Made by a program: the position numbers and the translations under genes
From: a virus
Lineage: Duplodnaviria > Caudoviricetes
Length of the DNA: 64,000 nucleotides
Reading direction: 5' to 3' (one strand)
IMG/VR virus record: IMGVR_UViG_3300011242_000002
Location: 128,001 to 192,000 of that record
Part shown: positions 44,373 to 49,708 of the stretch, in pieces
How positions within the stretch are numbered: the stretch's first letter is position 1
Layout: every line of letters begins with the position of its first letter
The notes under the pieces: model-generated
Databases searched by the model: none
Seen by the model: only the letters and a program-made list of their open reading frames with translations
Told to the model about the DNA's origin: nothing

Positions 44373-44629
44373 CTGTCTTACAACTTCAGCTCAGCGGCAA
44401 GCATGGTTTCGTGCTGACCAAGCCTGAGCGTGCTAACCCCGCAGACATCAAGCTGATGGAAGGTGACCTTCGCCTGCAGGATAACAAGTTGATGCTGGGA
44501 GAGTCTGAACTCGCCACCGTCACCAACCGTAACCTGAAGCTCAACACCTCGATCCTGATGACCGCGGTCGGGGATCTGCGCCGCATTGTGCAGCAGCTGC
44601 GCTACTTTAGCCAAACGCTGCGTGCCTAA
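44369..44629 (+). CDS. Hypothetical protein
   Basis: AGGAG RBS. Confidence 0.65.
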   Translation: MTVLQLQLSGKHGFVLTKPERANPADIKLMEGDLRLQDNKLMLGESELATVTNRNLKLNTSILMTAVGDLRRIVQQLRYFSQTLRA

Positions 44630-44741
44630 ACGTATTCCACCTGCAGTGTCATAATAACGATAATACTTAGAACGGCCTCGTTAGGGTGAGGGGTTTGATA
44701 CCCCCCACACCCTTTTTTTTTTTATGCCGCCCGCCCGGCGC

Positions 44742-44772
44742 CCGGTCAAACAAGGTCGTTCTTCGAACGACA
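44742..44772 (+). repeat. 31-bp dispersed repeat, copy 2
   Basis: CCGGTCAAACAAGGTCGTTCTTCGAACGACA. Confidence 0.9.
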
Positions 44773-44779
44773 CCAGGTG

Positions 44780-45230
44780 TTCTGAATCCTTTGGTTTTTT
44801 CTTTTTTATTTTTATCTGTGGATTCACTGTTGTGGACCTTAGTCCAGTAACAACAGTAATCCTCTCCTACCCTTCTTTTCTTCGGTTAAATCACCCCGTA
44901 TGTATGAAAATACATACGTATATATGTTATGTGTTATTATATTAAATTTACTGTTTTTTAGCTAAATTCAAGCGAATTTTCACTTCGCTGTAATATATAT
45001 AACTGGGGGGATAGGGGGGTAGGATGAGGGGGGTAGGATGATTGATGATGGTGGCAGGAGAGAGGGGGTGCAGGGGGAGAGAACCTGGAGGAAGAAGAAA
45101 GAAGGAAGGGGGGAGAAGGAAGGGGGGAAAGGGGGTACCGTCCAAAATCGCCCGAAATTCCGTTAAATAAAACACCTTTCACCATCCCTATAACACCCGC
45201 ACTGCCGACCACCTAAGTTCTTTTTTTTTT
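44780..45230. other. Origin-like non-coding region: hairpins, AT-rich block, G-rich purine tract
   Basis: Hairpins 44826-44858 and 44897-44918; AT-rich ~44900-45002; G-run purine tract ~45004-45136; T run ~45221-45230. Confidence 0.45.
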
Positions 45231-45286
45231 GAAACCGTCTTACGAGACACGTGCTTACGAGCGCATACTACAACCAGGAGTTTACC

Positions 45287-46153
45287 ATGAAGAGTTTAAT
45301 TGCCAAGATCATGTCCAACGAAAACCTGCCGGACAGCGACAGCCGGAAAAGCTACAAGCTGATCCCGGTACCGGATAACCACGAGATCGAGTTTCGCCGC
45401 CTTAACCTGAGCATCCCCGAGATGATCTTCCACGCCCTGTTCGGTGACAGCGATCCCATCACCGTCCCTTTGCAGGACAGCGGTAACGTGTACATCCTGG
45501 AGAACGGTAAAACCATCTCCACCTTTGGCAGCGCACCCCCGCCGCATACCGAGCAAGCTATCGCTGAGCAGCCAAAGGACACACCGTTTAATCAGTCGTA
45601 TTTCGATCAGCTGATGCAGCTCTTTGATCGGGTGACCGATCAGGCGCAGCCGGAAGAATATCCGTGGTTCCAGGTAGTGGCCGCCGCCTTGGCAGGTGCC
45701 CCTGCGAGCCTACCCCCAGAGGGGTTATGCGTGCCGTTTGCGATGGCCGATGGCAGGTTGACCGATCGGGCGCGTGCTTTCGTTAAAACGCTGAACAGCG
45801 CGCTGTTGAACAGCAAACCGATGCTGGCGTTGGAAGGGGCGAAACTGATCAAGGCGAACTACGTGTACCTGGTGCAGATTATCCCTGCCCCGTACGTGGA
45901 GAAGTCAGCGTATGAAACCCAGACCGCCAAAGAAGAGTTGCTGAACCGCGACATTTCCCACAGCGTGGTCAACGCCGTGCAGCGGGCGCTGAAGATGTAT
46001 AACCACGGCGCCACGTTTGCGGTACTGACGCCTGCGCTGCGCATTAGTCCTAAAGAGCGAGTCGCAATCACCGCTATCTTTAAGAAATGGCATGACGTAG
46101 ATGTCAAGTTCCGGTTTGTGGATGATCTCTGCACCCTGTTCTATTTTGACTAA
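45287..46153 (+). CDS. Hypothetical protein
   Basis: CAGGAG RBS before ATG 45287. Confidence 0.75.
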   Translation: MKSLIAKIMSNENLPDSDSRKSYKLIPVPDNHEIEFRRLNLSIPEMIFHALFGDSDPITVPLQDSGNVYILENGKTISTFGSAPPPHTEQAIAEQPKDTPFNQSYFDQLMQLFDRVTDQAQPEEYPWFQVVAAALAGAPASLPPEGLCVPFAMADGRLTDRARAFVKTLNSALLNSKPMLALEGAKLIKANYVYLVQIIPAPYVEKSAYETQTAKEELLNRDISHSVVNAVQRALKMYNHGATFAVLTPALRISPKERVAITAIFKKWHDVDVKFRFVDDLCTLFYFD

Positions 46154-46294
46154 CCATCAGGGGTCCGTTGAGACCCCTAATTATTTCCGTTATGAAAATA
46201 AGTAATAAAATACATAGCAACCCCTTAGTATGTTAGGTAGTCGATGTCGAGGTTCATTAGAATCATCCGGTCGGCTACCCTTCATGGAGGATTC

Positions 46295-48165: not shown

Positions 48166-48190
48166 ACTAATTTGCAGGGTACGAATCAAT

Positions 48191-48513
48191 GAGTCTGGCT
48201 GATAACCAGCTCACAGCGATAATAGCTTAGACCTACGGCGCGCCCCTAAGTCCGTAATAGCCGAATGCACAAAGCACTACTGCTCATCCGGTAGGCATTC
48301 GATCGCTGAACCATTATTCGATATGACACGGCCCACACAGCCAACCGTCAAAACCAAATTGACCCTGCGGCCGCCGCCTAATATACACGTAGCCGATGCG
48401 CGAAGACGTGATGGCGTTTGAGCGGCAGGGATCATAGGCCCAGGTACGTCCTGGACCGACCTTATTAAGTTAATCGGTTCGAGTGTTGCCATCCTAGCTG
48501 ACAAGGGTTCAGC
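48191..48513 (+). ncRNA. Two abutting structured RNA domains (one with an H-type pseudoknot)
   Basis: Closing stems CAGCGAT/ATCGCTG (48214-48308) and GCTGAACC/GGTTCAGC (48305-48513), each with several internal helices. Confidence 0.6.
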
Positions 48514-48528
48514 ATAACGGAGGCGAAC

Positions 48529-48962: not shown

Positions 48963-49062
48963 GTCCGGATAGTTTAATGAGAACAACGTCCTGGAAAGTG
49001 GTATAACTTACATGCCGCGTAATGGACGAAGGTGGATGAGGTTTGAGTCCTCCCTCCGGACA
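48963..49062 (+). ncRNA. tRNA-like element with a 32-nt expanded anticodon region (not a canonical tRNA)
   Basis: 7-bp acceptor GTCCGGA/TCCGGAC, U8A9, D stem GTTT/GAAC, stem CGTCC/GGACG, T arm GAGG-TTTGAGT-CCTC; no encoded CCA. Confidence 0.6.
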
Positions 49063-49074
49063 ACCTTTTGCTCT

Positions 49075-49172
49075 ACGTCGTACTGCCTGATGAGTTGCCG
49101 ACGTTAACTGCAACGAAACCTCGAGCAGTCTGGTCCCGCAAGGGAGTTCCAACCGGGCTGCTCTTGTCGCAG
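49075..49172 (+). ncRNA. Type I hammerhead ribozyme with pseudoknot; predicted cleavage after C49168
   Basis: CTGATGA 49087-93, stem II GTTGC/GCAAC, GAAA 49115-18, GTC 49166-68, stem I CTGC/GCAG; loop II CGACGT pairs with the 5' flank ACGTCG. Confidence 0.8.
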
Positions 49173-49205
49173 GGTTATCTCATTGACCAGGGTGTCTCGA
49201 GCTAA

Positions 49206-49310
49206 CGCAGCCTACTGACTATTTGAAATTACTACCGGGTTCTTTGGAATAGTCAGCGGGATGCGGTAATTTGACCGGTTACCTGTATCAGCATCGCAGG
49301 GGTGCGATGT
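49206..49310 (+). ncRNA. Structured RNA downstream of the ribozyme cut, possibly pseudoknotted
   Basis: CTGACTATT/AATAGTCAG stem; loop AAATTAC complementary to GTAATTT 49266-72; GCATCGCA/TGCGATGT hairpin. Confidence 0.5.
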
Positions 49311-49347
49311 ACGGTTCATGTTCTTGTGTTGAGTAGATGTAGCGGCT

Positions 49348-49384
49348 AAAACCCCGGGGCTAAACACCTCGGGGTTTTATGCCG
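49348..49384 (+). terminator. Terminator with TTATGCCG closing the RNA island
   Basis: AAAACCCCGGGG...CCTCGGGGTTTT stem. Confidence 0.8.
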
Positions 49385-49421
49385 GTTAAAAGCCAAATGC
49401 ATAATGCAGTTAATTTCAAAT

Positions 49422-49439
49422 CTATATTACCGCAGTGAT
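49422..49439 (+). promoter_or_regulatory. Early promoter (TATATTAC 49423-49430)
   Basis: CTATATTAC-CGCA-GTG with AATTTCAAA upstream. Confidence 0.8.
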
Positions 49440-49480: not shown

Positions 49481-49708
49481 ATGTTAATCCATTTTCTGCT
49501 GTACGGTTTTATGTTAAGCATGCTCGGCCTGGTAGGTATCCCATTGTTTGTGATGTACCGTCAAGTACTGGCCAAGCGCTACAACGTCAAACGCATTCAA
49601 CGTCTGTTGGCTGAGTACAGCCACAATGATGAATTACACACTTACGCGAAAGCCGAACTGGCTGACGCCAAGAAACGCCCGTTCTGGAAATGGAACATCC
49701 ACGCCTAA
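49481..49708 (+). CDS. Small membrane protein
   Basis: N-terminal hydrophobic helix; AGGAG RBS. Confidence 0.7.
   Translation: MLIHFLLYGFMLSMLGLVGIPLFVMYRQVLAKRYNVKRIQRLLAEYSHNDELHTYAKAELADAKKRPFWKWNIHA

What the first reader, a model, noticed from the sequence alone, without database searches (positions are those of the whole stretch)
49075..49172. Type I hammerhead ribozyme with a loop II pseudoknot and an unusual branched stem III
Seen: full catalytic core with CUGAUGA (49087-93), stem II GUUGC/GCAAC, GAAA (49115-18), GUC (49166-68) and stem I CUGC/GCAG. Loop II CGACGU (49099-104) is the exact complement of the 5' flank ACGUCG (49075-80). Stem III has only 2 bp, then a pyrimidine internal loop, a 12-bp helix (49123-134/49152-163) and a CCC-GCAA-GGG GNRA hairpin. 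Known: loop-flank pseudoknots are the tertiary contact of many natural hammerheads. Inference: cleavage after C49168 creates the 5'-OH end of a ~210-nt RNA running to the terminator.
Basis: partly seen in the sequence, partly recalled or inferred. Interest (0 to 1): 0.88.

Follow-up and report, generated by a model that had tools for sequence, protein, structure and literature searches.

The report
Hammerhead ribozyme in jumbo-phage RNA locus
A genuine, evolutionarily conserved self-cutting hammerhead RNA sits between a tRNA-shaped RNA and a folded ~210-base RNA in a gene-free stretch of a giant (nucleus-forming type) phage; the ribozyme class is well known, but this tRNA-linked phage subfamily is not annotated and offers a testable job for a phage hammerhead.

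Summary
Every element is at the stated coordinates. A descriptor of the core plus three stems matches once in 64 kb, against 0.01 expected in shuffles.

The same ribozyme occurs once per genome, at the same position, in related jumbo phages: Salmonella phage SA002, Erwinia phages pEa_SNUABM_37/48, all Agricanvirus phages including RAY and Ea35-70, and several uncultured contigs. Compensatory changes are seen in stem I, stem II, stem III and the loop II/5'-flank pseudoknot. The cleavage-site base is C, A or U.

A pattern scan found the same architecture in unrelated viral contigs. There stem III is a short hairpin, and in three contigs the pseudoknot strand starts at or just after the CCA of a real tRNA. 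The window's ribozyme therefore belongs to a phage-restricted, tRNA-linked subfamily of type I hammerheads. Rfam does not call it. In jumbo phages stem III has expanded to 50-110 nt. In the window it is a bulged hairpin, not branched.

The most likely role is cutting the transcript after C49168. This separates the tRNA-shaped RNA plus ribozyme, ending in a 2',3'-cyclic phosphate, from a ~210-nt structured RNA starting with a 5'-OH. Cleavage itself was not tested.

The scan reported the same thing earlier in a related phage genome.

The parts
48963..49065 (+). tRNA-shaped RNA upstream of the ribozyme. It has a 7-bp acceptor stem, a small D arm and a T arm. The 'anticodon arm' is extended to 5 bp + internal loop + 7 bp, with a conserved 7-nt loop AACUUAC. 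It ends in ACC.
   Evidence: Rfam tRNA 16.7 bits, below threshold. ARAGORN finds nothing. 11 of 29 pairs are compensatory in three phages. The same element lies upstream of the ribozyme in L042 and L065, and an AACUUAC/AACUUAA-loop element lies there in Agricanvirus.
49075..49080 (+). Pseudoknot 5' strand ACGUCG. It pairs with loop II 49099-49104.
   Evidence: 100% paired in 7 variants, with 2 of 6 pairs compensatory. Five canonical pair types occur at pair 2 across 25 sequences.
49083..49086 (+). Stem I 5' strand CUGC, after the 2-nt spacer UA at 49081-82.
   Evidence: The spacer is UA in 18 of 25 subfamily sequences.
49087..49093 (+). Core C3 U4 G5 A6 U7 G8 A9.
   Evidence: Invariant except N7 (U or C) in all relatives.
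49094..49114 (+). Stem II (49094-98/49110-14) with an 11-nt loop II. Its first 6 nt (49099-104) form the pseudoknot.
   Evidence: G10.1-C11.1 is invariant. There is a U-A to C-G compensatory change at the third pair.
49115..49118 (+). Core G12 A13 A14 A15.1.
   Evidence: Invariant in all relatives.
49118..49167 (+). Stem III domain, 50 nt: 2 bp, a 3x2 internal loop, a 12-bp helix, a 7-nt bulge and a 3-bp GCAA-capped tip.
   Evidence: The homologous domain is 66-110 nt in the related jumbo phages, 69 nt in the 177-kb contig L052, and 11-23 nt in the remaining viral contigs.
49166..49172 (+). G16.2 U16.1 C17, predicted scissile bond 49168/49169, then stem I 3' strand GCAG.
   Evidence: Cleavage is inferred from the hammerhead mechanism and was not tested.
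49169..49347 (+). Structured RNA released as the 3' product, with four covarying hairpins. The first is 49172-49187 paired with 49194-49208.
   Evidence: 15 of 49 predicted pairs are compensatory in 5 phages. A covariance model (CM) of it finds one copy in the genome and none in Agricanvirus or Seoulvirus.
49348..49378 (+). Terminator-like hairpin: A-tract, 12-bp G+C-rich stem, U-tract.
   Evidence: Sequence. Conserved with covariation. The simple terminator scan does not call it because the U run is part of the stem.

Best explanation
This is a functional type I hammerhead ribozyme of a phage-restricted, tRNA-linked subfamily.

It is transcribed on the + strand as part of a non-coding cassette: tRNA-shaped RNA, 13-nt spacer, ribozyme, ~210-nt structured RNA, terminator hairpin.

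Folding: stems I (4 bp), II (5 bp) and III form around the 13-nt core. The 6-bp pseudoknot between loop II and the 5' extension of stem I holds stems I and II parallel.

Chemistry: the 2'-OH of C49168 attacks the 49168/49169 phosphodiester. The upstream piece (tRNA-shaped RNA plus the whole ribozyme) ends in a 2',3'-cyclic phosphate. The downstream RNA starts at G49169 with a 5'-OH, and its first nucleotides then fold into their own hairpin.

The ribozyme thus works as a host-independent cutter. It uncouples a tRNA or tRNA-like gene from whatever is transcribed after it, and it gives the downstream RNA a defined 5' end that carries no 5' monophosphate.

Shown: the motif, its non-random occurrence, its conservation and covariation, its single syntenic copy, and the tRNA linkage of the subfamily.

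Inferred: co-transcription, cleavage in vivo, and the benefit to the downstream RNA.
For: - All core positions and the three stems are present.
- The descriptor hits once in the window, against 0.01 expected.
- One syntenic copy per genome is found with covariance model R1, built from the ribozyme's 5' half: own genome 74 bits, four relatives 69-79 bits.
- Seven jumbo-phage variants show compensatory changes in every helix, with H17 = C, A or U.
- 17 Agricanvirus records carry it.
- The core-to-GAAA pattern finds 12 viral and 17 metagenome stretches but only 1 in 596 Gb of prokaryote genomes.
- In the new hits, the unconstrained flanks again form the pseudoknot, a 2-nt spacer, a 4-bp stem I and an NUH site.
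- In L047, L051 and L060 the pseudoknot strand starts at or 1 nt after the CCA of tRNA-Arg or tRNA-Leu. Other copies lie within 0.2-1.4 kb of tRNAs.
- The downstream RNA is structured and covaries.
- There is no conserved ORF across the region.
- Pseudoknot contacts between stems I and II are documented and needed for fast cleavage in natural hammerheads of all three types (PMC3088659).
- In chimalliviruses, host nucleases and translation factors are excluded from the phage nucleus where transcription occurs (PMC13282480).
Against: - No Rfam hammerhead model reaches its threshold. The only matches are sub-threshold type III matches in a wrong topology: 21.1 bits in the window, 28-30 bits in relatives.
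- Stem I is only 4 bp. It is 3 bp in SA002 and 2 bp plus a wobble in L065.
- Stem III of this copy has only 2 bp before an internal loop.
- The nested hammerhead fold scores -31 kcal/mol, plus about -7 for the pseudoknot. A competing minimum-free-energy (MFE) fold scores -40.4 and pairs GCAG with a second CUGC at 49108-11.
- The downstream RNA is not conserved between clades: Agricanvirus has a different RNA there. The ribozyme is therefore not tied to one product.
- No expression or end-mapping data could be obtained.
Confidence: 0.8

Rival explanations
1. Same ribozyme and same cut, but the unit that benefits is the upstream one. The hammerhead would be a 3'-trailer device of phage tRNA or tRNA-like genes. 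It would end the tRNA-containing precursor, leaving a structured 2',3'-cyclic-phosphate end that resists 3' exonucleases or is a substrate for RtcB-type ligases. The expanded stem III domain would be a functional part of that upstream RNA. This reading overlaps with the best explanation rather than excluding it.
For: - Across all contexts the constant neighbour is an upstream tRNA or tRNA-like RNA, not the downstream sequence.
- The pseudoknot strand abuts the CCA end in three contigs.
- The enlarged, conserved stem III domain stays on the upstream fragment.
- RtcB genes (423-428 bits) are present in 3 of 5 ribozyme-bearing jumbo phages.
Against: - A type I hammerhead cuts at its own 3' end, so 50-150 nt of ribozyme stay attached to the tRNA 3' end and must still be removed by other enzymes.
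- RtcB is absent from the window's phage and from SA002.
- HDV-like theta ribozymes, which do free tRNA 3' ends, have their cleavage site adjacent to the tRNA (PMC10879173), unlike here.
Confidence: 0.25
2. The motif is conserved for another reason, such as a protein-binding or structural RNA. It would not self-cleave efficiently in vivo because it adopts the competing fold.
For: - The MFE fold without stem I and stem II is about 2-9 kcal/mol better than the nested hammerhead fold.
- Stem I is very short in some relatives.
Against: - All 13 core nucleotides are invariant over about 25 distinct sequences while the helices covary. H17 was C, A or U at every site picked, but the scan required a non-G there, so this is not independent evidence. 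That is the signature of selection for catalysis.
- Nearest-neighbour energies ignore the core's tertiary contacts and the pseudoknot.
Confidence: 0.05
3. It is a type III hammerhead, as the sub-threshold Rfam RF00008 alignments suggest, cutting after the GUC inside the pseudoknot strand (49077-79).
For: - RF00008 matches of 21-30 bits at 49072-49124 and at the homologous sites.
- GUC is nearly invariant in the pseudoknot strand.
Against: - In that reading stem I would be a 7-nt segment with at most one base pair.
- The stem III it needs has 2 mismatches in 8 pairs and does not covary (and reading).
- The type I helices do covary.
Confidence: 0.01

Closest known systems
Pseudoknot-stabilised hammerhead ribozymes of bacteria, prophages and phages (Perreault et al. 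2011, PMC3088659)
   Same: Identical catalytic core and three-helix junction. A 5-6-bp pseudoknot links stems I and II in place of loop-loop contacts. Found in phage intergenic regions.
   Different: - That paper stresses type II forms and prophage gene-flanking arrays.
- This subfamily is type I, with a fixed layout: 6-nt pseudoknot strand, 2-nt spacer, 4-bp stem I, 11-nt loop II.
- It is almost absent from prokaryote genomes (1 hit in 596 Gb).
- It is linked to tRNA genes.
- In jumbo phages it carries a 50-110-nt stem III domain.
Rfam Hammerhead_1 (RF00163, type I; mostly eukaryotic satellite and retroelement copies)
   Same: Type I topology: stem I is open, and cleavage is at the 3' end of the ribozyme.
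   Different: - No match was listed, even at E <= 10 on a 900-nt slice, and none for the short-stem-III relatives. Overlapping lower-scoring matches of the same clan are suppressed in these listings.
- Those copies use loop-loop contacts and a short stem III.
- Here there is a pseudoknot and a long stem III.
HDV-like theta ribozymes next to phage tRNAs (Kienbeck et al. 2024, PMC10879173)
   Same: A small self-cleaving ribozyme placed directly beside phage tRNA genes, proposed as a host-independent RNA-processing device.
   Different: - It is a different ribozyme class.
- Theta ribozymes have their cleavage site adjacent to the tRNA and so free its 3' end.
- The hammerhead here cuts 50-150 nt further downstream and frees the 5' end of the next RNA.
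Engineered 5' hammerhead cassettes used to give guide RNAs or viral RNAs exact 5' ends (own knowledge)
   Same: A type I hammerhead placed upstream leaves only the few stem I nucleotides on the product, which begins with a 5'-OH.
   Different: This is a natural cassette. The product's function is unknown.

Membership tests
Hammerhead ribozyme (class) | Conserved core: C3 U4 G5 A6 N7 G8 A9, G12 A13 A14, the A15.1-U16.1 pair, the G10.1-C11.1 pair, H17 not G | tested here: met
   Window 49087-93, 49115-18, U49167, C49168, G49094-C49114. The core, A15.1-U16.1 and G10.1-C11.1 are identical in 7 jumbo-phage variants and 25 subfamily sequences. H17 is C, A or U, but the site scan required a non-G there.
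Hammerhead ribozyme (class) | Three helices around the core, supported by covariation | tested here: met
   Stem I pairs show 3-5 canonical pair types each. Stem III pairs 2-4 vary compensatorily. Stem II shows U-A to C-G. Caveat: the site picking required 2-3 pairs in stems I and III.
Hammerhead ribozyme (class) | [quoted passage not shown] | tested here: met
   6-bp pseudoknot, 100% paired in 7 variants, 2 of 6 pairs compensatory, 0 of 500 shuffles reach the covariation score. Slid controls give 26-48% paired against 91%.
Hammerhead ribozyme (class) | Site-specific Mg2+-dependent self-cleavage giving 2',3'-cyclic phosphate and 5'-OH ends | not testable with these tools
Rfam hammerhead families (RF00163, RF00008, RF02276 and clan) | Covariance-model score at or above the gathering threshold | tested here: not met
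   No match at gathering. The best is RF00008 at 21.1 bits against a threshold of 48.5, in a type III register that cannot form stem I.
Type I topology | Stem I open; stems II and III closed by loops; cut at the 3' side of the ribozyme | tested here: met
   The type III alternative is rejected because its stem I would have <=1 bp.
Canonical tRNA (for the upstream element 48963-49065) | Cloverleaf with a 7-nt anticodon loop (U33, anticodon), G18G19 in the D loop, T-loop consensus | tested here: not met
   ARAGORN finds none. Rfam tRNA scores 16.7 bits against a threshold of 29. The anticodon loop is replaced by a covarying 7-bp extension with loop AACUUAC. It is tRNA-shaped but not a decoding tRNA.

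The most novel reading that the evidence does not exclude
The hammerhead is the self-contained processing enzyme of a polycistronic non-coding RNA operon in nucleus-forming phages. Transcription takes place inside a protein shell from which host nucleases are excluded, so the ribozyme would replace host RNases. It would release a tRNA mimic with an extended, non-decoding 'anticodon' arm, and a previously undescribed 5'-OH structured RNA. More generally, this tRNA-fused type I subfamily would be the hammerhead counterpart of theta ribozymes in phage tRNA clusters.
Probability: 0.3. Interest if true: 0.75.

Novelty: new member of a known kind. Interest (0 to 1): 0.55.

Why it matters
The biological jobs of bacterial and phage hammerheads are still mostly unproven; Perreault et al. 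2011 say so explicitly.

Here the ribozyme has a fixed, conserved place: after a tRNA or tRNA-like RNA and in front of a structured RNA. It occurs in phages that can be grown and, in part, manipulated (RAY, Ea35-70, SA002). Its role in RNA maturation can therefore be tested directly.

It also shows that current RNA family models miss a whole phage subfamily of type I hammerheads. A 2026 review of jumbo phage biology does not mention ribozymes at all. No paper linking hammerheads to jumbo or Erwinia phages was found in the held library.

Tried and rejected
- **Rfam.** Nothing at gathering threshold in the window. At relaxed E-values only a type III mis-register appears.
- **Second cut site and circle.** A second hammerhead-like substrate site, GAUGUA|GCGG at 49336-49345, appeared with relaxed settings in the window and L001. 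It would suggest excision of a circle-ready RNA. I rejected it: stem III has only 2-4 bp, SA002 has G at position 17, and there is no equivalent in Agricanvirus.
- **Long-range helix.** A helix between the new 5' end and 49330-43 was predicted from 4 sequences. With a fifth sequence a local hairpin has better covariation, and L065 lacks the long-range partner. I left it as an alternative only.
- **Homology of the downstream RNA across clades.** No blastn similarity, different consensus folds, and no covariance-model hit in Agricanvirus or Seoulvirus. There is one weak hit (22 bits) in the marine contig L054.
- **A common downstream RNA in unrelated hammerhead-bearing contigs.** Only a recurrent CUGAGUGUG word in four clades, and no consensus fold.
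- **Other jumbo-phage genera.** SEGD1, pEa_SNUABM_29 and ChrisDB have no copy.
- **Searches that found nothing.** An IMG/VR scan with a conserved word of the downstream RNA, and a protein-anchored search with the 99-aa neighbour.
- **ORFs over the ribozyme.** The 97-aa minus-strand and 45-aa plus-strand ORFs have no family match, and only fragments over the conserved RNA elements match in relatives.
- **Partner enzymes.** RtcB is in 3 of 5 ribozyme-bearing phages but not this one. There is no Ro60/TROVE protein in any. A T4-type RNA ligase is in one only.

Full report
**What is in the sequence**

- pseudoknot strand ACGUCG, 49075-80
- spacer UA
- stem I CUGC, 49083-86
- core CUGAUGA, 49087-93
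- stem II GUUGC/GCAAC, 49094-98/49110-14, closing an 11-nt loop whose first six bases CGACGU (49099-104) are the exact complement of 49075-80
- GAAA, 49115-18
- a 50-nt stem III domain
- GUC, 49166-68
- stem I 3' strand GCAG, 49169-72

All pairs were checked one by one. A descriptor of the core with stems I >=4, II >=4 and III >=2 bp matches once in the 64-kb window on both strands. It matches 0.01 times per dinucleotide shuffle. Neither figure requires the pseudoknot.

The stem III domain folds as an unbranched hairpin: 2 bp, a 3x2 pyrimidine loop, 12 bp, a 7-nt bulge and a CCC-GCAA-GGG tip. The word 'branched' in the title is therefore not right for this copy.

**Databases**

Rfam finds nothing at its thresholds. 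At relaxed E-values it gives only a 21-bit Hammerhead_3 match at 49072-49124. That alignment treats the GUC inside the pseudoknot strand as the cleavage site. It leaves 7 nt for stem I, which cannot form a helix. I reject that reading.

**Whose genome it is**

The window is bases 128001-192000 of a 273,301-bp viral record with terminal repeats.

Its closest DNA relatives are Salmonella phage SA002 and Erwinia phages pEa_SNUABM_37/48. The neighbouring 99-aa protein links it to Agricanvirus, Seoulvirus and Machinavirus jumbo phages. Agricanvirus is classified in Chimalliviridae, the nucleus-forming phages. In all of these phages that gene lies in the tRNA cluster.

**Conservation**

The ribozyme is present at the syntenic place in these phages:
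- pEa_SNUABM_48 (L001)
- SA002 (L002)
- Ea35-70 (L003)
- AH06 (L004)
- uncultured contigs L042/L055, L065/L048 and L026/L041

A covariance model of its 5' half finds exactly one strong copy per genome, at 69-79 bits, with the next best match <=15 bits. It finds none in SEGD1, pEa_SNUABM_29 or ChrisDB. All 17 Agricanvirus records carry it, including RAY.

The seven distinct variants keep every core base. The helices change compensatorily:
- Stem I: CUGC/GCAG, UUGC/GCAA, CUCC/GGAG.
- Stem II: third pair U-A or C-G.
- Pseudoknot: ACGUCG/CGACGU, AAGUCG/CGACUU, ACGUCU/AGACGU, UGUCG/CGACA.
- Stem III: completely different 5-12-bp basal helices.
- Position 17: C, A or U.

On the 5'-domain alignment the pseudoknot is paired in 100% of cells, and two of its six pairs change on both sides. 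No shuffle out of 500 reaches the covariation score. Sliding the partner strand drops pairing from 91% to 26-48%.

**A wider subfamily**

I scanned with a pattern that covers only the core through GAAA. It gave 12 viral stretches, 17 metagenome stretches and a single hit in 596 Gb of prokaryote genomes. The pattern is therefore specific, and the family is essentially viral.

In the new contigs the parts the pattern did not constrain again give the same layout: a 5-6-bp pseudoknot, a 2-nt spacer (UA in 18 of 25), a 4-bp stem I and an NUH site.

Stem III domain lengths are bimodal. Fifteen sequences, from the remaining viral and metagenome contigs, have 11-23 nt. Ten sequences have 50-110 nt; all ten are from contigs or genomes of 104-294 kb or their fragments. 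The window's 50 nt is the shortest of the expanded group.

Rfam does not call the short versions either.

**Link to tRNAs**

In L047, L051 and L060 the pseudoknot strand begins at A76 of, or one base after, the CCA of tRNA-Arg or tRNA-Leu. Other copies have tRNAs within 0.2-1.4 kb.

In the window the upstream neighbour, 13 nt away, is a tRNA-shaped RNA at 48963-49065. Its acceptor, D and T arms are tRNA-like. Its anticodon loop is replaced by an internal loop plus a 7-bp helix capped by AACUUAC. Eleven of 29 pairs covary. ARAGORN and Rfam do not accept it as a tRNA.

The same element precedes the ribozyme in L001, L002, L042 and L065, at 58-180 nt. A related AACUUAC-loop element precedes it in Agricanvirus.

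**What follows the cut**

From G49169 to about 49347 there are four hairpins with 15 of 49 pairs compensatory in five phages. A terminator-like hairpin follows at 49348-78, so the product is about 210 nt.

G49172 is shared between stem I and the first hairpin of the product. Refolding after cleavage would therefore disfavour re-ligation; this is an inference.

A long-range helix between the new 5' end and 49330-43 was predicted from four sequences. It loses to the local hairpin when a fifth is added.

This RNA is specific to the window's clade. Agricanvirus has a different structured RNA in the same position. In ordinary phages the ribozyme is followed by 200-300 nt of leader and then various genes (amidoligase, radical SAM).

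No conserved ORF covers the ribozyme.

**Mechanism**

The best-supported reading is a generic, host-independent transcript cutter placed after a tRNA or tRNA-like gene.

Because it is type I, nearly the whole ribozyme stays on the upstream fragment, which ends in a 2',3'-cyclic phosphate. The downstream RNA keeps only four stem I bases and starts with a 5'-OH.

From established E. coli RNA decay biology (own knowledge), a 5'-OH end does not activate the 5'-monophosphate sensor of RNase E. The cut would therefore both define and protect the downstream RNA.

In chimalliviruses, middle and late transcription takes place in a shell from which host nucleases are excluded (PMC13282480). That would make a self-cleaving device useful. 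This is an attractive inference that I have not tested.

The rival view is that the upstream tRNA-like unit is the beneficiary.

**Caveats**

- Stem I is short.
- This copy has a weak stem III base.
- A nested alternative fold is energetically competitive.
- There is no experimental evidence of cleavage or expression.

**Comparison with what is known**

Pseudoknots joining stems I and II occur in about 40% of natural hammerheads of all three types and are needed for fast cleavage (PMC3088659). The fold is therefore a known kind.

tRNA-adjacent self-cleaving ribozymes in phages are known for HDV-like theta ribozymes, which cut next to the tRNA (PMC10879173). The hammerhead here cuts on its far side.

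I found no paper on hammerheads in jumbo or Erwinia phages, and the 2026 jumbo-phage review does not mention ribozymes.

Earlier notes of this scan reported the same ribozyme in a related jumbo phage, and phage hammerheads beside tRNA genes elsewhere. I tested those claims independently where I could.

**Verdict**

This is a real hammerhead and a new member of a known class. It belongs to an unannotated, tRNA-linked phage subfamily with a jumbo-phage-specific stem III expansion. Its function is plausible but unproven.

Noticed in passing
window 48963-49065 (+): A tRNA-shaped RNA with the anticodon loop replaced by an internal loop plus a covarying 7-bp helix, capped by an invariant AACUUAC loop. 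It ends in ACC. It is conserved upstream of the ribozyme in all relatives of the window's clade, and in altered form in Agricanvirus. It is not a decoding tRNA, and its function is unknown.
   Followed up: partly
L003 5170-5233 (Ea35-70) and L004 5183-5247 (AH06): Sub-threshold matches to the tRNA-like domain of bacterial Y RNA YrlA (RF02553): 44.5 and 37.3 bits, E 5e-7 and 6e-5. They lie in the same RNA island about 1.1-1.7 kb upstream of the ribozyme. These phages encode RtcB but no Ro60/TROVE protein.
   Followed up: partly
window 48166-48528: SA002 and pEa_SNUABM_48 have a tRNA-Tyr directly after the 193-aa gene. The window's phage has 360 nt with no tRNA and no Rfam match at that position. 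ARAGORN finds no tRNA anywhere in the 64-kb window.
   Followed up: partly
window 49421-49431: The motif TCTATATTACC, just after the terminator hairpin, is conserved as CTAYATTAC in L001, L002, L042 and L065, ahead of the next small gene (49481-49708). It is a candidate phage-RNA-polymerase promoter.
   Followed up: no
window 49336-49345: GAUGUA|GCGG resembles a second substrate site for the same hammerhead core (stem I 4 bp with one G-U, stem III 2 bp). It is also present in L001, but SA002 has G at position 17. It is probably a by-product of complementarity to the 5' end of the RNA.
   Followed up: yes
W01 91427-92575, W03 44597-45745, W04 45028-46176 (phage records): Full-length RtcB RNA ligase genes (423-428 bits) are present in pEa_SNUABM_48, Ea35-70 and AH06. 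None is present in the window's phage or in SA002. pEa_SNUABM_48 also has a T4-type RNA ligase domain next to its RtcB gene.
   Followed up: partly
L047, L049/L050, L051, L061 (about 80-260 nt after their hammerhead cut): The word CUGAGUGUG recurs downstream of the ribozyme in four unrelated viral contigs. A simple alignment gave no common fold.
   Followed up: partly
L054 2661-2882 (-): This marine metagenome contig carries a hammerhead of the subfamily. About 260 nt further downstream there is a weak (22-bit) match to the model of the window's downstream RNA. It shares the GCAGCCUUC...hairpin...GGGA core and ends in a terminator.
   Followed up: no
L001 1645-1923 and L002 1726-2112: The relatives carry different small ORFs (93 and 129 aa) inserted between the conserved region after the 99-aa gene and the tRNA-shaped RNA. 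The window has no ORF there. The cassette is a hot spot for insertions and deletions.
   Followed up: no
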